Below are positions 1-7,841 of a stretch of 7,841 bases of DNA, piece after piece. The stretch comes from a virus. Lineage: Duplodnaviria > Heunggongvirae > Uroviricota > Caudoviricetes. The notes under the pieces were generated by a model. It was not told the DNA's origin, did no database searches, and was given only the letters and a program-made list of their open reading frames with translations. The stretch's first letter is position 1. Each line of letters starts with the position of its first letter. The stretch lies in IMG/VR virus record IMGVR_UViG_2534681763_000020. One strand, 5' to 3'. A program made the position numbers and the translations under genes.

Positions 1-28
1 TTACTTGATAAAACTCCGTAAAGCTCAT
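1..28 (-). CDS. 5' end of an unidentified gene starting at 28 and running off the left window edge (only ~9 codons visible: MSFTEFYQV...)
   Basis: ATG at 28-26 on the minus strand, preceded by purine-rich AGAGAGGG (complement of 31-38). Frame stays open to the window edge. Too short to identify. Confidence 0.2.
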
Positions 29-97
29 GCCCTCTCTGGTTTGGTTATCATTCATCAAGCCAGAGAAAAATTTAATAGCCCCCCCCTTTTGCGCGCA

Positions 98-116
98 GTG
101 CTTTCCCCGCCTCGCC
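98..116. other. cos: P2/P4-type cos site, 19-nt cohesive-end sequence
   Basis: 98-116 reads GTGCTTTCCCCGCCTCGCC, the reverse complement of GGCGAGGCGGGGAAAGCAC, which I recall as the cohesive end shared by P2, 186 and P4. Flanked by GC-rich dyads at 115-138 and 166-185 (CCGCGCC-GGGAAT-GGCGCGG). Confidence 0.7.
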
Positions 117-219
117 CGCCCGCTTTGCGGGGCGGTTTTAATGCAGTTGCACTGACACGCTCAGGCCGCGCCGGGAATGGCGCGGTCTGCAGAAAATGAG
201 GCAGGAAAACGCATGCAAA

Positions 220-250
220 GCCATGCACCTTATCGATGCATGGCTTTTTT
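220..250. terminator. Hairpin plus T-tract between cos and the 3' end of psu (candidate intrinsic terminator, stronger in the plus orientation)
   Basis: Stem GCCATGCA (220-227) / TGCATGGC (237-244), 9-nt loop, then TTTTTT (245-250) on the plus strand. On the minus strand the same hairpin is followed only by UUUG and preceded by an A-run. Confidence 0.45.
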
Positions 251-280
251 CAGTAAAAACGGGCGGATTTTCGGGGAATT

Positions 281-853
281 TTACACGGACTGATGTGATG
301 CCAGTTGCGCACTTTTACGCGAAAAAATCATGTTCTGCGCAGGGGTGAATTTTTCACGGCTGTCATCCACCGAAGCCGCGTCAGGCCTGAATCCGATGGT
401 CGTTAAAATGTCGCTATCCTGTGCGGAATAATTAATTTTTTCACCCTTCGCAAGCCAGGACAGAAGGGCTTCACGCAGGGCATCTGTGGCACGCTGTATG
501 GCACAGTTTCGGGCAATGGCCGTCAGCTCACTGTAGCCCATCAGCTCCGGTGCCAGTGCCGCCGCCAGTGCTGTGCCGTGCTGCTGCATAAAATCATTCA
601 GCCGGTCGCGGATGCTGATGTGCTGAACGGCTTCATGCGAACGAATATAACGACCGGCAGCCTGATTCACCTGCCATTTTCTGACTTCGATAATATTGCG
701 TAATTCGTCCAGGCGACTGACGTTTCTGCCTTCTCCTGACAGAAGCCGCAGGTATTCCTGTTCGGCCGCTGCCAGCTCATTTTTGCGTTGCAGCCATGCT
801 GCTTTGTTATTCTGACAGGTGTCAAAGGCCTGCTGTAAGGCTGTGCTTTCCAT
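281..853 (-). CDS. psu: Psu, polarity suppression protein (Rho antagonist and capsid decoration protein), 190 aa
   Basis: 190-aa ORF, the length I recall for P4 Psu. Last gene of a three-gene minus-strand operon next to cos. ATG at 853-851. Confidence 0.88.
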   Translation of the reverse strand: MESTALQQAFDTCQNNKAAWLQRKNELAAAEQEYLRLLSGEGRNVSRLDELRNIIEVRKWQVNQAAGRYIRSHEAVQHISIRDRLNDFMQQHGTALAAALAPELMGYSELTAIARNCAIQRATDALREALLSWLAKGEKINYSAQDSDILTTIGFRPDAASVDDSREKFTPAQNMIFSRKSAQLASHQSV

Positions 854-926
854 CGTTATCTCTTTCTCATCATGCTGAAGAATAAAAATACGGTGTGCGG
901 CGACGGCCGGTGTTAACCGGCAGCCC

Positions 927-1427
927 TCATTCCAGACGCAGCGAATATGATTGTGTTTTTAACCGTACTGGCGGCAGTTCCTGTTTTTCATGCAGGCGTT
1001 CTGCCAGTTCGTCCGGTGTGACCGGGCGGACAATGAAGCGGTTGATGGTCTGAAGCGTTTTAAACACCAGACCACATCCCGGATCCGTGCACACATAAAA
1101 ACGCTCGGTGACTTCCTGAGACAGACGCCGCGATGTTCTTGACAGTGCAAGGCCTTTACATCTCCGACAACAATATCCGGTAACAAGCATTCTTTTCGGG
1201 CGCTTCATGCTGCCGGAGGCTGACGTCAGTGAATCGCGGTATCTCTGTTTGCCTGAAATGTATTCCATTCCTGAATCTTTACAGTCAGAGAAAAAGCTTT
1301 CACTCGCTTCAAATGTCGCAGAGCAATAAATATTCCGGCACTGTGCAATCATTATCTTGGTGCCATCGTCCATGAAATGTGCGCGACGGGTGTGAGCAAC
1401 ATGTCCACACGACGGGCAGTAAATCAT
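927..1427 (-). CDS. delta: Delta, late transcriptional activator (tandem duplicated Ogr-like zinc finger), 166 aa
   Basis: 166 aa. Two copies of the Ogr-type zinc-finger spacing C-x2-C-x22-C-x4-C (C4/C7/C30/C35 and C87/C90/C113/C118). The N-terminus MIYCPSCGH resembles P2 Ogr. Start ATG overlaps the sid stop (ATGA at 1427-1424). Confidence 0.9.
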   Translation of the reverse strand: MIYCPSCGHVAHTRRAHFMDDGTKIMIAQCRNIYCSATFEASESFFSDCKDSGMEYISGKQRYRDSLTSASGSMKRPKRMLVTGYCCRRCKGLALSRTSRRLSQEVTERFYVCTDPGCGLVFKTLQTINRFIVRPVTPDELAERLHEKQELPPVRLKTQSYSLRLE

Positions 1428-2158
1428 GACAGCAGTCCTCTGGCCTTAAGCTCTGCACCCTGCTGGTCTATTTTGTCCTGCCACACCTTGCGCTGTGCCG
1501 GTGTGCCTGCCACCTCATAATCCATGTGCGGGAGCGTTGCCGCTGACAGTCCGGTCAGCCGGAGAACCGGCTCGCCGGTGAGACTGATTTGCATCTGTTT
1601 AATTTTCTGTTCCAGCGATGATTTCACCTGCTGCATGACAGCCTTTTCCGGTGCGACGTAGCCCTGATGGCCGGTGGTGTTGGCGAGCGGATTTTCCTGT
1701 ACCAGAATGCTCAGATGCATTGCCCGGACAAGCGCCTCACAGGTTTCATTCAGGGCGTGTTCCAGCTCATGCTCTGCATACAGACTCAGAAGGTGATGAT
1801 GTGCCTTCCGGTAGGCGGTGGCCGTGCTGTCACACGCCCCTTTCAGGCGTTCGCGTTCAAAATTCAGCACCACGGCCAGATTGTCATATTCCTGTACCAG
1901 CTCCCGGCGTGCCACGCGCTCAATGTGGCGCTGTTTCAGCTCGTCGCTCAGGACACCACCGGCTGCACGAAAGGCCGTGCGCCAGTCGTCAGCGTCGTTT
2001 CCGTCGGCCTGCGTCAGCGCATTTTTTTCCTGCTCTGCCCGTTCAATGGCCGTGACGGTCTCATCCATCAGGCGGGCGTTCTCAAGGTGGGCGGCTCTGG
2101 CCTTTTCCAGTTGTGCCAGTGCGGGTTGCAGATATTCAGGGATGGTGTTGTCAGACAT
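1424..2158 (-). CDS. sid: Sid, capsid size determination (external scaffold) protein, 244 aa
   Basis: The track ORF (1424..2224) is 266 aa. The internal ATG at 2158-2156 (MSDNTIPEYL...) gives 244 aa, the recalled Sid length, and is preceded by GAGGAG at the proper spacing. Coiled-coil-like, Ala/Glu/Leu-rich composition. Confidence 0.85.
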   Translation of the reverse strand: MSDNTIPEYLQPALAQLEKARAAHLENARLMDETVTAIERAEQEKNALTQADGNDADDWRTAFRAAGGVLSDELKQRHIERVARRELVQEYDNLAVVLNFERERLKGACDSTATAYRKAHHHLLSLYAEHELEHALNETCEALVRAMHLSILVQENPLANTTGHQGYVAPEKAVMQQVKSSLEQKIKQMQISLTGEPVLRLTGLSAATLPHMDYEVAGTPAQRKVWQDKIDQQGAELKARGLLS

Positions 2159-2179
2159 TTTCCGGCTCCTCGTCACTTC

Positions 2180-2250
2180 AGGTTGAGAAAATTGTGACGT
2201 ACACCGGACAACAACACGACGCATTGCAGATGTGCCAGCCCTGACACAGG
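2180..2250 (-). promoter_or_regulatory. Psid: Late promoter Psid with Ogr/Delta-type activator site (TGT-N12-ACA)
   Basis: Dyad TGT-N12-ACA at 2231-2248 (TGTGCCAGCCCTGACACA), about 55 bp upstream of the predicted start near 2184, with CACAAT as a -10-like hexamer. A second TGT-N12-ACA lies at 2193-2210. The P2/P4 late-promoter consensus is established knowledge. Confidence 0.6.
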
Positions 2251-2301
2251 AGACTCATCCTCAGACCGGCAAGCCAGGAAAAGGTCGCAGGAAAAACCGG
2301 C

Positions 2302-2472
2302 TTACTGTTTGTTTTTTTATATTTTACTGTTCACCTCTGTTCACCTTAAGAAAAAAGATAAGTAATACAGTAAGTTAAAGGGTGAACAATCGCAGTAATG
2401 ACTGTTCACCGTCTGTTCACCACTGTTCACCCGTTGATGGACTTTTTGTGCTGTTTATTACTGTTTGTTTTT
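2302..2472. repeat. ori: ori-like replication origin: six type I iterons (TGTTCACC) bounded by a 15-bp perfect direct repeat and AT-rich DNA
   Basis: TGTTCACC at 2328-2335, 2338-2345, 2403-2410, 2414-2421 and 2424-2431; inverted GGTGAACA at 2381-2388. Spacing is 10-11 bp. TTACTGTTTGTTTTT occurs at 2302-2316 and 2458-2472. The same octamer recurs in the crr repeats downstream of the primase gene. Confidence 0.75.
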
Positions 2473-2584
2473 ATTAATTCGCCGGGAATGAATAAGAAAA
2501 AACGATTTGTATTTCACTATAAAAATTACGAATTGCTTTAAGTGGCTTTAAATGACTTTAAGTGGAGATGAACAAAAAATACAC

Positions 2585-2660
2585 AAGCATTGTAAGGCTG
2601 CCGGAACAAATCCCCCCTGTTGCGTCTGCTGAAAATATTCACAAAATAAAGCGCTACCCG
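2585..2660 (+). promoter_or_regulatory. PLL: Late promoter PLL with Ogr/Delta-type activator site (TGT-N12-ACA) upstream of vis
   Basis: TGTAAGGCTGCCGGAACA at 2591-2608. AATATT -10-like element near 2644-2649. Predicted start around 2655, about 55 nt before the vis ATG. Mirror arrangement to Psid across the iteron cluster. Confidence 0.55.
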
Positions 2661-2710
2661 AAGCCGGACGGACTTATCCGGTGCTGTATGGACATTAACG
2701 AGGTAGCCCG

Positions 2711-2977
2711 ATGCAAGCTGTTTTTTCTTCCCCGTCTCCCGCCCCTGTGACGCCACTGATGCCGCTGCCGGACATCACGCAGGAGCGTTTTTTACGTCTG
2801 CCGGAAGTGATGCACCTGTGCGGCCTGTCACGCTCGACCATCTATGAACTCATCCGTAAGGGGGAATTTCCGCCGCAGGTGAGTCTTGGCGGTAAAAATG
2901 TGGCCTGGCTGCACTCTGAAGTCACCGCATGGATGGCCGGGCGCATTGCCGGACGCAAACGGGGGTACGACGCATGA
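2711..2977 (+). CDS. vis: Vis, AlpA/Xis-family HTH DNA-binding regulator and excision factor, 88 aa
   Basis: 88-aa ORF with AlpA-like helix-turn-helix core ([48 protein letters not shown]). First gene after the PLL-like promoter. Stop TGA (2975-2977) overlaps the first eta ATG. Confidence 0.85.
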
Positions 2978-3564
2978 TGATGCCTGTTCTGCAAAAAGTC
3001 CCTTTTTCTGGCTTGCCTTTTTCCGGCATTTGCGGATATAGTTTTTCCGCTGTCGCAAAATCGGCAGCCGGGCGTGGAAACCCGAGCAATCTAACGGCGA
3101 CATATGACGCGCCATGCGTCTTTTTTTACGTCGTTGCTTCGGCACACCTGTTTGTGTGGTGTGTGGTCAGTCGAGCAGATGGCACTCCGTGCATCCTGCC
3201 CGCGTCCGCTCATTATGCCGCAGAGTCAATGGTAGCTCAGGCGGGGCAGCCTCCGGGCTGGCCGGTATCCGTTAGAGCCGGTATTTCCACCCCCGTCTGG
3301 GCTATCGCCATCGAGCGTGGAAACTCCGGCGATAGCGTAACCTGCTATCTAACGGAGGCTGCCATCATGGCTACAACCCTTACCCCCTCACACCCTGAAT
3401 TTGTCTTTGTGTTTGCGGCTGTCCGTCGCGCAGATCGTCATCCCCGTATCTGTATGCTTCGCACCGTCGCCGGTGATGAACGCAGCGCCCGCCGTTCCCT
3501 TGTCCGTGACTATGTGCTCTCCCTTGCTGCCCGTCTGCCGGTGGTGGAGGTGTCCCGTGCGTAA
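2974..3564 (+). CDS. eta: Eta: long ORF starting at a triple ATG, reading through the immunity RNA region and ending as kil (nested genes)
   Basis: ATGATGATG at 2974-2982 in the same frame as kil, continuous to the kil stop at 3564 (194-196 aa). From memory, P4 eta starts at one of three adjacent start codons upstream of PLE and contains kil as its C-terminal part. Confidence 0.5.
3013..3050 (+). promoter_or_regulatory. PLE: Candidate sigma70 promoter PLE for the immunity transcript
   Basis: TTGCCT (3013-3018), 18-bp spacer, TATAGT (3037-3042). Lies about 20 nt upstream of seqA and about 400 nt downstream of the PLL site, consistent with the recalled P4 layout. Confidence 0.4.
3072..3098 (+). 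promoter_or_regulatory. seqA: seqA: leader element complementary to seqB of the CI immunity RNA
   Basis: GTGGAAA (3074-3080) and TCTAACGG (3090-3097) are reverse-complementary to TTTCCAC (3284-3290) and CCGTTAGA (3269-3276). GTGGAAA may sit in a small stem-loop, CGGG-loop-CCCG. Confidence 0.55.
3240..3320 (+). ncRNA. cI: CI RNA (P4 immunity factor) containing seqB; boundaries approximate
   Basis: seqB core CCGTTAGAGCCGGTATTTCCACCC (3269-3292) pairs with both seqA and seqC. GC-rich structured region with repeats GCCGGTAT (3261-3268 and 3277-3284). Ends were not determined from sequence. Confidence 0.45.
3313..3358 (+). promoter_or_regulatory. seqC: seqC: second target of seqB, containing the kil Shine-Dalgarno
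   Basis: GTGGAAA (3317-3323) lies in the loop of a 9-bp hairpin, GCTATCGCC (3301-3309) / GGCGATAGC (3328-3336). TCTAACGG (3348-3355) runs into GGAGG (3354-3358), the kil ribosome-binding site. Confidence 0.55.
3367..3564 (+). CDS. kil: Kil, 65-aa cell-killing (Icd-like) protein; first translated gene after the immunity leader
   Basis: 65-aa ORF ([65 protein letters not shown]). GGAGG lies 8 nt upstream of the ATG. Length equals the recalled 65 aa of P4 Kil. Confidence 0.75.
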
Positions 3565-3844
3565 TAAAAAAGCCCCTCAGACCGTCTCAGCGCGTCATGA
3601 CGCCCGTGAACACCTCAGCATTGAGGCTTACCATAAGCTCAACCGCGCCAGCGCCGTATCCCAGTTTGTTGGGGGTGATTTGATTCACCGTGAACTCTCC
3701 GGCCTGCATCAGCTCTACATTCCGCATATTTTCAGCTACCTGAATGAAGATATTGATTTTGTGCTGAATGAACTGAAAGCCAAAGGCCTGTGCCGCGATT
3801 TTCTCGCCCAGCAGAAAGACCGGGGAGACAGGACGCATGTTTGA
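3557..3844 (+). CDS. eps: Epsilon (E protein), candidate anti-repressor that derepresses helper prophage P2; 95 aa from a GTG start
   Basis: GTG at 3557 preceded by GGAGG (3547-3551) and overlapping the kil stop (GTGCGTAA). 95 codons. The 3' end overlaps the orf151 start (ATGTTTGA). Assignment is by position between kil and orf151; start codon is uncertain. Confidence 0.55.
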
Positions 3845-4292
3845 TTTTCCCCAGCCCGGTGAGATTTACCGTTCTGCCGGTTTTCCCGATGTGGCCGTGG
3901 TCGGCATTCTGGAAGACGGTATTCCGTGGGAAATGCCGTACCGCTGCCCGGACATTGTCTGGAACCCGTACCGCCGTAAATTCAGTATCCTTGTGCGTAT
4001 CCTCGCTGACGGGCGCACCACAGACATCCCGCTGGGGCGTTTTCTGCGGGAATTTACCTGTGACCGTCCTGACCTGTTTAAACGCAGCCCCGTAAACCGG
4101 CATGCGGTACTGAAAGAAATGGCCGGAGACCCGGAATTACAGAAATGGCGGGAGAAATATCTGGATATTTACCCGCAGGACCCTGTTCCGGTCAGCCGGG
4201 CGGCACCGGTGGCGCGGGAATGGCGGGAAATTCCCCGCACGGAGCCTGACCCGGAAATCACCCCGGATAACAGTTACCGCAATTATCTGTAA
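3837..4292 (+). CDS. orf151-like protein, function unknown
   Basis: 151-aa ORF translationally coupled to the upstream gene. Matches the size and position of P4 orf151 in the left operon. Confidence 0.8.
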   Translation: MFDFPQPGEIYRSAGFPDVAVVGILEDGIPWEMPYRCPDIVWNPYRRKFSILVRILADGRTTDIPLGRFLREFTCDRPDLFKRSPVNRHAVLKEMAGDPELQKWREKYLDIYPQDPVPVSRAAPVAREWREIPRTEPDPEITPDNSYRNYL

Positions 4293-4365
4293 TTAAAAAA
4301 CGACACCCGAAAAATTAAATGTGCGTATTCGCGCAGGGATACGCACGTCTTCAGGAGACGCAGAT

Positions 4366-4431
4366 ATGCCTTATCAGTTAATGCAACCGGCACGGAATGC
4401 AGTCATCTGTCACAGGGAGGAAAACAAATGA
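4366..4431 (+). CDS. Candidate 21-codon upstream ORF coupled to cnr
   Basis: AGGAG (4353-4357) sits 8 nt before the ATG at 4366 ([21 protein letters not shown]). Its stop TGA (4429-4431) overlaps the cnr ATG (AAATGA). Follows an 8-bp-stem hairpin at 4321-4346. Confidence 0.25.
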
Positions 4432-4748
4432 AAACACCCTTACCGCCCGTCTTACGCGCTGCCCTTTACCGTCGCGCTGTCGCCTGTGCCTGGCTGACCG
4501 TGTGCGAACGTCAGCACCGCTACCCGCATCTCACCCTTGAGTCACTGGAGGCGGCCATCGCCGCTGAGCTGGAAGGCTTTTATCTGCGCCAGCACGGTGA
4601 GGAAAAAGGGCGTCAGATAGCCTGTGCCCTGCTGGAAGATTTAATGGAATCCGGCCCCCTGAAGGCTGCGCCGTCGCTGTCCTTTCTCGGGCTGGTTGTG
4701 ATGGATGAACTCTGTGCCCGTCACATAAAAGCGCCGGTACTGCACTGA
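4428..4748 (+). CDS. cnr: Cnr-like protein (copy number regulation of the plasmid state, acts on alpha), 106 aa
   Basis: 106-aa ORF immediately upstream of the primase gene, with GGGAGG ribosome-binding site. Assignment by position and size in the P4 left operon. Confidence 0.7.
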
Positions 4749-4762
4749 AGGAGAACAACACC

Positions 4763-7096
4763 ATGAAAATGAACGTAACCGCCACCGTCAGCCATGCGCT
4801 CGGCCACTGGCCGCGTATTCTCCCGGCGCTGGGGATTCAGGTGCTTAAGAACCGTCATCAGCCCTGTCCGGTCTGTGGCGGGAGTGACCGCTTCCGTTTT
4901 GATGACAGGGAGGGGCGCGGCACCTGGTACTGCAATCAGTGTGGTGCCGGTGACGGCCTGAAACTGGTTGAAAAGGTGTTTGGTGTTTCCCCGTCCGACG
5001 CGGCCGCAAAGGTGGCTGCCGTGACCGGCAGCCTGCCCCCGGCTGACCCGGCAGTGACGGCCGCCGCCGGCGCTGAAACAGACGCTGCCCGGAAGAACGC
5101 CGCCGCACTGGCACAAACCCTGATGGCAAAAACCCGTCCCGGAACCGGTAACGCCTACCTGACCCGCAAGGGCTTTCCCGGCCGGGAATGCCGGATGCTG
5201 ACCGGCACACACAGAGCCGGTGGCGTGAGCTGGCGCGCCGGTGACCTTGTGGTGCCACTGTATGACGACAGCGGCGAACTGGTTAACCTTCAGTTAATCA
5301 GTGCTGACGGCCGTAAGCGCACCCTGAAAGGTGGACAGGTCAGGGGCACCTGTCACACCCTTGAAGGACAGAATCAGGCCGGAAAACGTCTGTGGATAGC
5401 GGAGGGATACGCGACCGCACTTACCGTGCATCACCTGACCGGTGAAACGGTGATGGTGGCGCTTTCTTCCGTGAACCTCCTTTCTCTGGCCAGCTTTGCC
5501 CGGCAGAAGCACCCCGCCTGTCAGATTGTCCTTGCCGCTGACCGTGACCTCAGTGGTGACGGCCAGAAAAAAGCCGCCGCAGCCGCAGATGCGTGTGAAG
5601 GTGTTGTTGCCCTGCCGCCGGTCTTCGGTGACTGGAATGATGCCTTCACGCAGTACGGCGGGGAAGCCACCCGTAAGGCCATTTATGATGCCATCCGGCC
5701 ACCGGCTGAAAGCCCGTTCGACACCATGAGCGAAGCGGAGTTTTCCGCCATGAGTACCAGCGAAAAGGCCATGCGTATCTATGAGCATTACGGCGAGGCG
5801 CTCGCGGTCGATGCCAACGGCCAGCTTCTGTCCCGCTATGAAAATGGTGTCTGGAAGGTGCTGCCGCCACAGGACTTTGCCCGGGATGTGGCCGGGCTGT
5901 TTCAGCGTCTGCGCGCGCCGTTCTCCTCCGGGAAGGTGGCCTCCGTGGTGGACACCCTGAAGCTGATTATTCCGCAGCAGGAAGCCCCCTCCCGCCGCCT
6001 GATTGGCTTTCGTAACGGCGTGCTCGACACGCAGAGCGGCACGTTCCACCCGCACAGTCCGTCACACTGGATGCGTACCCTGTGCGATGTGGATTTCACC
6101 CCGCCGGTGGAAGGGGAAACGCTGGAAACCCACGCCCCCGCGTTCTGGCGCTGGCTTGACCGTGCCGCCGGTGGTCGTGCGGAAAAACGCGACGTGATTC
6201 TGGCCGCACTGTTTATGGTGCTGGCAAACCGCTACGACTGGCAGCTCTTTCTGGAGGTGACCGGTCCCGGCGGCAGCGGCAAAAGTATCATGGCCGAAAT
6301 AGCCACCCTGCTGGCCGGGGAGGATAACGCCACGTCGGCCACCATCGAGACGCTGGAATCCCCGCGTGAACGTGCCGCGTTAACTGGCTTCTCACTGATA
6401 CGCCTGCCGGACCAGGAAAAATGGAGCGGCGACGGAGCCGGACTCAAGGCCATCACCGGCGGCGATGCGGTGTCCGTTGACCCGAAATACCGGGATGCAT
6501 ACTCCACGCACATCCCGGCGGTGATTCTGGCCGTGAACAATAACCCGATGCGCTTCACCGACCGCAGCGGCGGCGTGTCACGCCGGCGGGTGATTATTCA
6601 CTTCCCGGAACAGATAGCCCCGCAGGAGCGCGACCCGCAGCTTAAGGACAAAATCACCCGCGAGCTGGCGGTCATCGTGCGTCACCTGATGCAGAAATTC
6701 AGCGACCCGATGCTCGCCCGGTCACTGCTTCAGTCCCAGCAGAACTCAGACGAGGCGCTGAACATCAAACGGGATGCCGACCCGACGTTTGATTTTATCG
6801 GCTATCTGGAAACCCTGCCGCAGACCAGCGGCATGTATATGGGGAACGCCAGTATCATCCCGCGTAATTACCGTAAATACCTCTATCACGCCTATCTGGC
6901 CTACATGGAGGCAAACGGCTACCGGAATGTACTCAGTCTGAAAATGTTCGGACTGGGGCTGCCGGTGATGCTGAAGGAATACGGGCTGAATTACGAGAAG
7001 CGCCATACCAAACAGGGGATACAGACCAACCTGACGCTGAAAGAGGAAAGCTACGGCGACTGGCTGCCAAAATGTGACGACCCAGCAACAGCCTGA
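4763..7096 (+). CDS. alpha: Alpha: multifunctional replication protein (primase, SF3-type helicase, C-terminal origin-binding domain), 777 aa
   Basis: 777 aa, the length of P4 alpha. N-terminal zinc motif CPVCGG...CNQCG. Primase motif EGYATA and acidic ADRD. Walker A GPGGSGKS at 6263-6286 (residue ~501). AGGAG ribosome-binding site. Its recalled binding octamer TGTTCACC is clustered on both sides (ori and crr). Confidence 0.95.
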   Translation: MKMNVTATVSHALGHWPRILPALGIQVLKNRHQPCPVCGGSDRFRFDDREGRGTWYCNQCGAGDGLKLVEKVFGVSPSDAAAKVAAVTGSLPPADPAVTAAAGAETDAARKNAAALAQTLMAKTRPGTGNAYLTRKGFPGRECRMLTGTHRAGGVSWRAGDLVVPLYDDSGELVNLQLISADGRKRTLKGGQVRGTCHTLEGQNQAGKRLWIAEGYATALTVHHLTGETVMVALSSVNLLSLASFARQKHPACQIVLAADRDLSGDGQKKAAAAADACEGVVALPPVFGDWNDAFTQYGGEATRKAIYDAIRPPAESPFDTMSEAEFSAMSTSEKAMRIYEHYGEALAVDANGQLLSRYENGVWKVLPPQDFARDVAGLFQRLRAPFSSGKVASVVDTLKLIIPQQEAPSRRLIGFRNGVLDTQSGTFHPHSPSHWMRTLCDVDFTPPVEGETLETHAPAFWRWLDRAAGGRAEKRDVILAALFMVLANRYDWQLFLEVTGPGGSGKSIMAEIATLLAGEDNATSATIETLESPRERAALTGFSLIRLPDQEKWSGDGAGLKAITGGDAVSVDPKYRDAYSTHIPAVILAVNNNPMRFTDRSGGVSRRRVIIHFPEQIAPQERDPQLKDKITRELAVIVRHLMQKFSDPMLARSLLQSQQNSDEALNIKRDADPTFDFIGYLETLPQTSGMYMGNASIIPRNYRKYLYHAYLAYMEANGYRNVLSLKMFGLGLPVMLKEYGLNYEKRHTKQGIQTNLTLKEESYGDWLPKCDDPATA

Positions 7097-7103
7097 CCCA
7101 CCT

Positions 7104-7128
7104 GACCGGCATCTGCCGGTCTTTTTTT
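7104..7128 (+). terminator. Rho-independent terminator after alpha
   Basis: Stem GACCGGC (7104-7110) / GCCGGTC (7115-7121), loop ATCT, followed by TTTTTTT (7122-7128), 8 nt after the alpha stop codon. Confidence 0.7.
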
Positions 7129-7140
7129 ATCCCTGAATCC

Positions 7141-7440
7141 CCCGAAGGTGAACAATCCAGTGTTCACCCTTCACCGTATATTCACCCGTTATCACACTGA
7201 AATTAAAAGAGAAAAACGAAAGGTGAACAGTGTGAACAATCAAATCAAAAAAAACTTTTTTCTCACTGTGTGATTTCAGTACGGAGGATTAATCACCGGT
7301 ATGAGTCACACCGGCAGAATGCCGGAGGTGAAGAATCGAATGTTCACCCTTCACCCATTATTCACCACCTATCATACTGAAATAAAAGGAGAAAAAAGAA
7401 AGGTGAACAGTGTGAACAGTTCTTTCGAAAAAAAATTTTT
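7141..7440. repeat. crr: crr (cis replication region): two direct repeats of ~120 bp, ~180 bp apart, each carrying type I iterons
   Basis: Unit 1 about 7141-7260, unit 2 about 7321-7440. Each has GGTGAACA/GGTGAAGA, then TGTTCACC, TTCACC-like half sites, an A-rich block (AAAAGAGAAAAA), and GGTGAACAGTGTGAACA. Perfect octamers at 7147, 7161, 7222, 7341 and 7402. Confidence 0.75.
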
Positions 7441-7560
7441 TTCCTGAGTTAACATGCGTGAAGATACGTGTAAAAATTAATCGATAGATATTATATGTAT
7501 AAGGATGTGTATAAATGAATTATAATAGAAAAATATAAACGATTTGAATCAAATGGTTAT

Positions 7561-7701
7561 ATGGCAATTTTGACTCCTGTGATCTTCCGCCAAAATGCCT
7601 CTCCTGACGTTCTCCAACCCCTTGTAATACTGTCAATCCAGATATTTTCTACTGCTCAATATTCAATCGGCTTCAGGAATACCTGGTCTAAGGTTTTGTG
7701 A
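7561..7701 (+). CDS. Candidate small hydrophobic ORF (46 aa), unknown
   Basis: MAILTPVIFRQNASPDVLQPLVILSIQIFSTAQYSIGFRNTWSKVL. No convincing Shine-Dalgarno. Its stop overlaps the next ATG (TGATG at 7699-7703). Lies in AT-rich DNA. Confidence 0.2.
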   Translation: MAILTPVIFRQNASPDVLQPLVILSIQIFSTAQYSIGFRNTWSKVL

Positions 7702-7841
7702 TGGACGATGAGCGGCTGAAGAATCCGCCTGTCGGTTCTTCTGTCCTCGAACGCATCCGCGATATGCGCGCCAGCATGTGCCGTGTTTATTTGCAGGTGA
7801 TTTGCCCCCTGCTGGCTCTCAGCCAACTGTATCGCCATTAA
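7701..7841 (+). CDS. Candidate small ORF (46 aa), unknown; ends exactly at the window edge
   Basis: MDDERLKNPPVGSSVLERIRDMRASMCRVYLQVICPLLALSQLYRH. Codon usage is enteric-like (CTG, CGC, GCC). The antisense 60-aa track ORF (7656..7838) uses rare ATA/AGA/AGG codons. Weak AAGG ribosome-binding site. Confidence 0.3.
   Translation: MDDERLKNPPVGSSVLERIRDMRASMCRVYLQVICPLLALSQLYRH

What the first reader, a model, noticed from the sequence alone, without database searches (positions are those of the whole stretch)
1..190. cos is internal and a gene begins just beyond it, reading out of the window
Left of the cos sequence a minus-strand ATG (28-26) with a purine-rich upstream element opens a frame that leaves the window. 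In P4-like satellites the segment beyond cos and psu is, as I recall, a variable cargo locus where anti-phage defence systems are found. The neighbouring DNA outside this window is therefore the most likely place for something novel. Two GC-rich dyads (115-138, 166-185) flank the cohesive-end sequence and may be terminase recognition elements.
Basis: partly seen in the sequence, partly recalled or inferred. Interest (0 to 1): 0.45.

Follow-up and report, generated by a model that had tools for sequence, protein, structure and literature searches.

The report
P4 satellite cos beside defence cargo
The left end of this window is the packaging (cos) site of a P4-like phage satellite, next to its known swap-in slot for anti-phage genes; the proposed gene start is not real, and the neighbouring cargo is a catalogued single defence gene of the recently validated Reve family.

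Summary
The window is a P4-like satellite prophage, 98% identical to P4, inserted at tRNA-Sec.

The proposed minus-strand gene start (ATG 28-26) is not a gene. In the closest genome it opens a 29-codon frame antisense to the 3' end of a plus-strand gene. Its "purine-rich element" is one arm of a hairpin (33-66), and it sits 1 nt from the ATG.

Window 1-90 is the 3' flank of the cargo. It occurs in 11 of 5,426 complete E. coli genomes, always directly after a 588-aa P-loop ATPase gene whose stop codon abuts window position 1.

That ATPase is the whole cargo between int and cos. Rousset et al. 2022 list the exact protein (WP_000160301) as a P4 hotspot locus. It is 63% identical over its full length to "Reve", a single-gene system shown in 2026 to block Drexlerviridae.

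Both GC-rich dyads exist, but both lie on the psu side of the cohesive end. Only the first is inside the segment shared with P2. Neither shows covariation.

The hotspot idea is right and already published, the specific gene call is wrong, and the find is low in novelty.

The parts
1..90 (+). 3' untranslated flank of the hotspot cargo gene, a Reve-family 588-aa P-loop ATPase whose stop codon ends at window position 0. This is the tail of the variable region.
   Evidence: It is 100% identical to L001 12001-12090, directly after the CDS at 10234-12000. Window 1-97 is found in 11/5426 E. coli genomes, all carrying the ATPase gene. All other P4-like loci diverge left of position 88-91.
26..28 (-).
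   Evidence: The frame is 29 codons (MSFTEFYQVIIAMRLLLKRCFVLKLLLCV*) and runs antisense to the ATPase 3' end. The SD-like run ends 1 nt from the ATG. No feature is annotated here in the 11 genomes.
33..66 (+). Inverted repeat TCTCTGGTTTG / CAAGCCAGAGA, a hairpin just downstream of the cargo gene. It probably acts as a 3'-end or terminator-type hairpin of the plus-strand transcript.
   Evidence: Reported as I2 by the repeat finder. Window 1-90 folded as plus-strand RNA gives -19.4 kcal/mol (z -3.4). The minus strand gives z -0.1.
79..86 (.). Poly-C tract at the cargo/cos junction. It is C8 here and in ETEC-2265, and C7 in L003 and L004.
   Evidence: Sequence comparison. The other genomes are 99.0% identical over the 97 nt, a difference I did not map.
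91..151 (.). cos core shared by P4-like satellites and P2-like helper phages: GCGCGCA, the 19-nt cohesive end, dyad 1 and TTTTAATGCAGTTGCA.
   Evidence: Alignment A1 with P4, P2 and 11 other P4-like loci. P2-like phage hits cover window 91-151 or beyond. The literature describes a conserved 55-bp cos (PMC9594776, citing Ziermann & Calendar 1990).
98..116 (-). The 19-nt cohesive-end sequence (cosN), GGCGAGGCGGGGAAAGCAC on the minus strand.
   Evidence: The P4 record end 11624 maps to window 117, and P4 positions 1-19 map to window 116-98. P2's cosR end maps to window 98.
116..135 (.). Dyad 1, CCGCCC-N8-GGGCGG followed by TTTTAAT. It lies inside the conserved cos core on the psu side of the cohesive end.
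   Evidence: Terminator-like match on the plus strand. Fold z is -0.6 and -1.2, no better than shuffles. 81% of cells pair, with no compensatory change.
162..189 (.). Dyad 2, CAGGCCGCGCC / GGCGCGGTCTG, a strong GC hairpin outside the P2-shared segment.
   Evidence: Reported as I3. It folds at -25.2 kcal/mol, z -5.3 on the plus strand and z -3.4 on the minus strand. It is absent from P2, and its register and sequence vary among P4-like loci. 69% of cells pair and covariation does not exceed shuffles.
206..250 (.). Second conserved block, with ATGCA repeats and the perfect 11-bp hairpin 217-227/237-247 flanked by A and T runs. It looks like a bidirectional terminator after psu, and it is also conserved in P2-like phages.
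   Evidence: Reported as I1 and I4. Fold z is -3.1 and -4.2. It aligns without gaps to P2. Alignments to phage 186, Salmonella SW9/BIS20/SEN1, Klebsiella and Yersinia P2-like phages run through it.
281..853 (-). psu, the polarity suppression and capsid decoration gene that bounds the hotspot on the conserved side.
   Evidence: A 190-aa ORF, matched to P4 psu and annotated as such in L001.
7572..7594 (+). attR, a 23-bp direct repeat of the tRNA-Sec 3' end. It shows that the element is an integrated prophage with cos inside it.
   Evidence: Exact 23-mer shared with L001 8846-8868, inside tRNA-Sec 8772-8866.

Best explanation
Window 1-190 is the junction between the variable defence hotspot and the packaging site of a P4-like satellite prophage integrated at selC.

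Layout (shown). Positions 1-90 are the untranslated tail of the cargo. Positions 91-151 are the cos core that the helper (P2-type) terminase nicks at 98-116 to give 19-nt cohesive ends. The remaining conserved packaging or termination elements (to about 250) lie on the psu side.

Why the cargo can vary so close to cos (inferred). Everything the satellite shares with its helper lies on the psu side. Only 7-10 bp left of the nick are constrained, so cargo can be swapped right up to cos.

The cargo. In all 11 genomes that share window 1-97, the neighbour is one plus-strand gene. It is co-oriented with int and converges on psu. It encodes a 588-aa ORC/Cdc6-like P-loop ATPase of the Reve family.

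Function (inferred). A 63%-identical relative protects E. coli against Drexlerviridae, so this gene most likely acts as a single-protein, ATP-dependent anti-phage sensor or switch. Its effector step is unknown.

The proposed gene start. The minus-strand ATG at 28-26 is a chance triplet inside the cargo gene's downstream hairpin region, not a gene start.
For: - Identity with P4 and the cos end.
- cos core shared with P2 and 11 other P4-like loci, with divergence immediately to the left.
- Hotspot definition in the literature.
- Closest genome annotation (tRNA-Sec, int, ATPase ending at window position 0, psu).
- Window 1-97 is exclusive to ATPase-bearing loci (11/5426; the gene is in 12/5426).
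- Same int-ATPase-cos order for homologues of 31-100% identity in E. coli, Klebsiella, Yersinia and Serratia, at three different integration sites.
- The exact protein is listed as a P4 locus in Rousset 2022 Table S1A.
- Reve description, construct sequence and identity (63.2% over 582 aa; 99.5% to P0035).
- Reve phenotype: efficiency of plating (EOP) 2.5e-6 to 2.5e-2 on seven Drexlerviridae.
- Pfam AAA_22/KAP P-loop and PADLOC PDC-S49 hits.
- Structural model with ORC/Cdc6 as top folds.
- The 29-codon antisense ORF and the hairpin.
Against: - The window's own source genome is not in the collections. The best whole-window match is 99.3%, so the left neighbour is inferred from the 97-nt tail, not read.
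- The allele next to the window has not been tested. Only a 63%-identical relative has.
- No experiment or covariation shows that the 33-66 hairpin, dyad 2 or the 206-250 block does what I suggest.
- The hairpin at 33-66 lacks a proper U tract.
Confidence: 0.88

Rival explanations
1. One reading: a real minus-strand gene starts at ATG 28-26, with a ribosome-binding site just upstream. It reads leftwards into a novel cargo, as gop does in canonical P4.
For: The ATG and the GAGAGGG run are present. In canonical P4 the first gene beyond cos (gop) is indeed transcribed away from cos.
Against: - The frame closes after 29 codons and overlaps the 3' end of a 588-aa gene on the other strand.
- The SD-like run ends 1 nt from the ATG, whereas functional spacing is about 5-9 nt (established knowledge).
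- The run is one arm of a hairpin.
- No feature is annotated there in the 11 genomes.
- The region is not conserved in other Reve-family loci.
Confidence: 0.03
2. In the actual source genome the 97-nt tail is a leftover from a cargo swap, and a different, possibly novel, system lies to the left.
For: Cargo turnover in this hotspot is very fast (PMC13586616 abstract). L020 has a 100%-identical Psu and the same dyad 2, but another cargo. One genome (PI6) carries only 87% of the ATPase query.
Against: - All 11 genomes with window 1-97 have the ATPase gene directly adjacent.
- The window begins exactly one base after that gene's stop codon.
- Other cargos replace the sequence right up to position 88-91, leaving no such tail.
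Confidence: 0.05
3. Both GC-rich dyads are terminase recognition elements (cosB-like).
For: Dyad 1 lies in the roughly 55-60 bp shared by P2 and P4, which must be recognised by the same terminase. Dyad 2 is a very stable hairpin, and some form of it is kept in most P4-like loci.
Against: - Dyad 2 has no counterpart in P2, although the same terminase packages both genomes.
- Its arms and register differ among P4-like elements.
- Neither dyad shows covariation, and dyad 1 folds no better than shuffles.
- The element conserved with the helpers beyond the core is the 206-250 ATGCA block.
Confidence: 0.15

Closest known systems
Satellite phage P4 (X51522 / NC_001609): cos and right end
   Same: 98% identity from the cohesive end through psu, delta, sid, the immunity region and alpha. 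The 19-nt cohesive end, both dyads and the 206-250 block are the same.
   Different: Left of position 88-91 there is no similarity. P4 carries gop-beta-cII and a 440-aa int, with gop reading away from cos. This element carries one ATPase gene reading towards cos, plus a 391-aa int that targets tRNA-Sec.
psu-int defence hotspot of P4-like satellites (Rousset et al. 2022, Cell Host Microbe; Moura de Sousa et al. 2026, NAR)
   Same: Same position directly adjacent to cos, the same sharp conserved/variable boundary, and low-G+C cargo. The exact cargo protein WP_000160301 is listed there as locus 'AAA_22' for E. coli ATCC 8739.
   Different: Nothing differs in kind. I found no record that this allele itself was tested.
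Reve single-gene defence system (pFD425 / UnknownSys7; Moura de Sousa et al. 2026)
   Same: Same position between int and cos of a selC P4-like satellite, and about the same length (586 vs 588 aa). Identity is 63.2% and collinear over 582 aa. Both show the AAA_22 plus KAP P-loop signature, and ORC ATPase is the top structural match for both.
   Different: 37% of residues differ, so target range may differ. Protection is shown only for the tested allele (Drexlerviridae). No mechanism is known for either.
KAP family P-loop NTPases (Pfam PF07693)
   Same: GxWGxGKT Walker A and a long insert between Walker A and Walker B (residues about 73-117, low model confidence).
   Different: The Pfam match covers only 28 residues at 20.7 bits. 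No hydrophobic segment approaches a membrane helix (maximum 19-residue hydropathy 1.18), whereas canonical KAP NTPases have membrane helices in that insert (my knowledge of Aravind et al. 2004).
PADLOC candidate PDC-S49
   Same: The N-terminal NTPase region (residues 22-317) matches at E 1.2e-14.
   Different: Only half of the protein matches, so it is a distant relative rather than the same family. No paper in the held library mentions PDC-S49.

Membership tests
P4-like satellite cos site | 19-nt cohesive-end sequence GGCGAGGCGGGGAAAGCAC shared with the P2 helper | tested here: met
   Exact match at window 116..98. It coincides with the ends of the P4 and P2 records.
P4-like satellite cos site | Conserved segment of about 55 bp shared with P2-like helpers next to the cohesive end | tested here: met
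   Window 91-151 aligns to P2 at 93-97%. The 55-bp statement is in PMC9594776.
P4-like satellite cos site | Cleavage and packaging by P2 terminase | not testable with these tools
   This needs a transduction or in vitro cos-cleavage assay.
P4 psu-int defence hotspot | Variable gene content between psu/cos and int in otherwise near-identical elements | tested here: met
   913 genomes hold at least 80% of window 1-1000. In the listed hits similarity stops at 86-91, except in the few that hold this cargo. L020 has a 100%-identical Psu and a different cargo.
P4 psu-int defence hotspot | The cargo is an anti-phage system | tested here: inconclusive
   Homology to validated Reve (63%) and to PADLOC PDC-S49. 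The allele itself is untested.
Reve single-gene system | Full-length sequence homology to the validated protein | tested here: met
   BLASTP gives 63.2% identity over residues 1-582 of both proteins, 747 bits.
Reve single-gene system | Sole gene between int and cos of a P4-like satellite | tested here: met
   The order int, ATPase, cos, psu holds in L001 and L003-L005, and for homologues in L007-L019.
Reve single-gene system | AAA (PF13401) plus KAP P-loop (PF07693) signature, with ORC ATPase as the top fold match | tested here: met
   Pfam hits and Foldseek PDB top hits ORC4/5 and Cdc6/Orc1 at E about 1e-4. The paper's annotation says the same.
Reve single-gene system | Protection against phage (Drexlerviridae) when expressed alone | not testable with these tools
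   Shown only for pFD425.
KAP family NTPase | Pfam KAP_NTPase match across the NTPase domain | tested here: inconclusive
   20.7 bits against a cut-off of 20, covering residues 18-45 only. Some homologues carry a precomputed PF07693 hit.
KAP family NTPase | Transmembrane helices inserted in the P-loop domain | tested here: not met
   No 19-residue window exceeds hydropathy 1.18. The insert at 73-117 is polar.
Protein-coding gene at minus-strand ATG 28-26 | Open frame of plausible length, proper ribosome-site spacing, conservation or annotation | tested here: not met
   29 codons, antisense overlap with the ATPase gene, 1-nt spacing, no annotation, and no conservation.

The most novel reading that the evidence does not exclude
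The Reve-family ATPase next to this window has an ORC/Cdc6-like AAA+ core and a helical C-terminal half. It has no recognisable nuclease, membrane or NADase effector. It could therefore defend by a mechanism not yet described for single-gene systems. One example would be ATP-dependent binding of a phage replication origin or initiator that stalls replication. The 63%-diverged allele might also have a different phage range from the tested one. Nothing in my data excludes this, and nothing supports it beyond fold resemblance.
Probability: 0.15. Interest if true: 0.5.

Novelty: already known. Interest (0 to 1): 0.12.

Why it matters
The practical value is in correcting the annotation. The gene call at 28-26 should be dropped. 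cos should be placed at 98-116, and the hotspot boundary at about 88-91.

The cargo beside the window should be labelled as a Reve-family defence gene, not as an unknown. It is the only gene between int and cos. It occurs in about 0.2% of complete E. coli genomes, including the laboratory strain ATCC 8739, which would make that strain a convenient host for mechanistic work on Reve.

The comparison also shows that all sequence shared with helper phages lies on the psu side of the nick. That is a simple reason why cargo can vary up to a few bases from cos.

Tried and rejected
- No exact source genome was found. The best whole-window match is ETEC-2265 at 99.3%, so the left flank had to be inferred.
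- The genome-contig scan with Psu returned only 6 loci, too few for a strong covariation test.
- Covariation counts on 14 cos regions did not exceed shuffles for any of the three hairpins. I therefore make no structural claim from them.
- Rfam gave only sub-threshold chance hits: RsmY at 17 bits and Hrs13 at 15 bits.
- NCBIfam gave nothing useful for the ATPase.
- A profile search of PDB sequences with the family alignment found nothing.
- No paper in the held library mentions PDC-S49.
- The NAR version of the 2026 paper has no held supplements. The bioRxiv version supplied the sequences.
- I considered PARIS (AriA/AriB), Old-like ATPase-TOPRIM and TIR-NLR as identities for the 'AAA ATPase'. 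I rejected them because there is no AAA_15/21, DUF4435, TOPRIM or TIR match.
- The plus-strand ORFs 5-199 and 27-155 and the minus-strand ORF 55-228 run across cos and the conserved packaging elements. I rejected them as genes: P4 has no counterpart annotation, and cos cleavage would split them.

Full report
**What the window is.** The 7,841-base window is a P4-like satellite prophage. Phage P4 (X51522) aligns to window 117-7441 at 98.0% identity. psu (281-853, minus), delta, sid and alpha are at the expected places. A 23-bp repeat of the tRNA-Sec 3' end at 7572-7594 marks attR. In the closest genome, tRNA-Sec and int lie just left of the window.

**Where cos is.**
- The P4 record ends at window 117. 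P4 positions 1-19, the cohesive end GGCGAGGCGGGGAAAGCAC, are window 116..98.
- P2's annotated cosR end maps to window 98.
- I aligned the window with the circularised P4 junction, P2 and eleven other P4-like loci from E. coli, Klebsiella, Enterobacter, Tatumella, Citrobacter, Kluyvera and Photorhabdus. Similarity starts at GCGCGCA (91-97; from 88 for P4) and runs rightwards.
- Left of that point every element is different.
- The block shared with P2 runs to about 151. This agrees with the roughly 55-bp conserved cos cited from Ziermann and Calendar 1990 (PMC9594776).

**The proposed gene start.** A minus-strand ATG does sit at 28-26, preceded by GAGAGGG. It does not start a gene:
- In ETEC-2265, which is identical to the window over 1-90, the frame ends after 29 codons (39 from an upstream TTG). 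It runs antisense to the last 60 nt of a 588-codon plus-strand gene.
- The purine run ends one base before the ATG, too close for a ribosome-binding site.
- That run is the 3' arm of an 11-nt inverted repeat, 33-43/56-66.
- The repeat forms a 13-bp hairpin only in the plus-strand RNA (-19.4 kcal/mol, z -3.4, against z -0.1 for the minus strand). That fits a 3'-end hairpin of the plus-strand gene.
- None of the 11 complete E. coli genomes that contain window 1-97 annotates anything there.

**What lies beyond the window.**
- The window's exact source is not in the collections. The best whole-window match is 99.3%.
- Window 1-97 occurs in only 11 of 5,426 complete E. coli genomes. Each of them carries the same gene directly to the left.
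- In three inspected genomes that gene's stop codon is immediately followed by the sequence of window position 1.
- The order is tRNA-Sec, a 391-aa integrase, one 588-aa 'AAA family ATPase' (WP_000160301), then cos and psu.
- The ATPase gene has 31% G+C against about 55% for the satellite backbone.
- The cargo is therefore a single gene. It is co-oriented with int and converges on psu, the opposite of gop in canonical P4.

**Identity of the cargo.**
- Pfam gives AAA_22 and a P-loop-only KAP_NTPase hit. PADLOC gives candidate PDC-S49 for residues 22-317.
- Homologues of 31-100% identity occur in E. coli, Salmonella, Klebsiella, Serratia, Yersinia, Pectobacterium, Hafnia, Citrobacter and others.
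- In every context I fetched, homologues sit between int and cos of a P4-like satellite, at three different integration sites: selC, near xylR, and ssrA. The one exception was a 25%-identical Pseudoalteromonas protein.
- Rousset et al. 2022 defined the psu-int hotspot adjacent to cos. Their Table S1A lists 'NC_010468 AAA_22 WP_000160301', the exact protein.
- Moura de Sousa et al. [quoted passage not shown] Its supplement lists PF13401, PF07693 and a human ORC ATPase fold hit.
- I translated the synthesised fragment Syst.19_UnknownSys7. It is 99.5% identical to homologue P0035 and 63.2% identical over residues 1-582 to the ATPase next to this window.
- The Reve construct (pFD425) lowered efficiency of plating to between 2.5e-6 and 2.5e-2 on all seven Drexlerviridae tested. 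It had no effect on the other phages shown, through CLB_P2; the rows for the rest of the 28-phage panel were on a part of the file I did not read.
- The link between pFD425 and Reve rests on the order of constructs in the supplement, where the heading was lost in text conversion.

**Structure and likely action.**
- An AlphaFold model built from 30 family members has mean pLDDT 78.7. It shows an N-terminal alpha/beta NTPase with a poorly modelled polar insert (73-117) and an all-helical C-terminal half.
- The best solved-structure matches are ORC4/ORC5 and archaeal Cdc6/Orc1, at E about 1e-4 and low TM scores. This is the same result the paper reports for Reve.
- Walker A (GEWGVGKT, 26-33) and the DD-E-R motif (129-133) are invariant in the family.
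- There is no membrane-helix-like segment. The protein therefore lacks the hallmark of canonical KAP NTPases.
- No effector domain is recognisable.
- I infer an ATP-dependent sensor or switch whose downstream step is unknown. This is inference only.

**The dyads.**
- Both dyads exist, but both are to the right of the cohesive end, so they do not flank it.
- Dyad 1 (116-135, followed by TTTTAAT) lies inside the P2-shared core and matches a terminator pattern. It folds no better than shuffled sequence (z -0.6 and -1.2). In divergent satellites its changes break pairs rather than compensate. Its sequence is conserved, not its structure.
- Dyad 2 (162-189) is a strong hairpin (-25.2 kcal/mol, z -5.3) but has no counterpart in P2. 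It changes arms and register among P4-like elements and shows no covariation above shuffles. A role in recognition by the shared terminase is therefore not supported.
- A second block at 206-250, with three ATGCA motifs and the perfect hairpin 217-247, is conserved with helper phages. It aligns to P2 without gaps, at the same distance from the nick. Alignments to phage 186 and to Salmonella, Klebsiella and Yersinia P2-like phages run through it.
- Since all helper-shared sequence is on the psu side, only 7-10 bp on the cargo side are constrained. That would explain why the hotspot can begin so close to cos. This is inference.

**Comparison and novelty.** The cos site, the hotspot and its sharp boundary are published. 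The cargo protein is catalogued, and its family has been experimentally validated. What remains open is the mechanism of Reve and the phage range of this 63%-diverged allele, both of which lie outside the window. I rate the finding as already known and of low interest.

Noticed in passing
window 206-250: This block has three ATGCA motifs and a perfect 11-bp hairpin. It is conserved between P4-like satellites and P2-like helpers (P2, 186, and Salmonella, Klebsiella and Yersinia P2-like phages), at the same ungapped distance from the nick as in P2. The about 55 bp in between are unrelated. It may be a second packaging-signal element and not only the psu terminator.
   Followed up: partly
L020 3639-5387 (contig URND01000141.1): This P4-like element has a 100%-identical Psu and the same dyad 2 as the window (its cos-psu spacer differs from the window at two bases), but a different two-gene cargo (278 and 302 aa) with no Pfam or PADLOC match. 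Its integrase is 92% identical to the one beside the window. The cargo is an unannotated hotspot candidate.
   Followed up: partly
L020 (whole contig): The contig is labelled 'uncultured Clostridiales bacterium UMGS1151' but carries an E. coli-type P4-like satellite. This is probably a binning contaminant in that metagenome-assembled genome.
   Followed up: no
window 7563-7841: This stretch covers attR and the chromosomal flank beyond it. It matches two 'Campylobacter phage' records (A18a, A11a) at 97-98%. That suggests E. coli DNA is included in those phage assemblies.
   Followed up: no
window 79-86: A homopolymeric C tract sits exactly at the cargo/cos junction. It is C8 here and in ETEC-2265, and C7 in L003 and L004.
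   Followed up: no
window about 3128 onwards: Relative to ETEC-2265 the window has an indel or replacement starting near 3128, in the region between the AlpA-like and Icd/Ash-like genes. The rest is nearly identical, so the source is a distinct variant of the element.
   Followed up: no
L015 16556-17743: In a Serratia fonticola P4-like element carrying a 31%-identical Reve relative, an ApeA_NTD1/HEPN_Apea protein lies beyond alpha. That is the secondary hotspot between the primase and att described in the 2026 paper.
   Followed up: no
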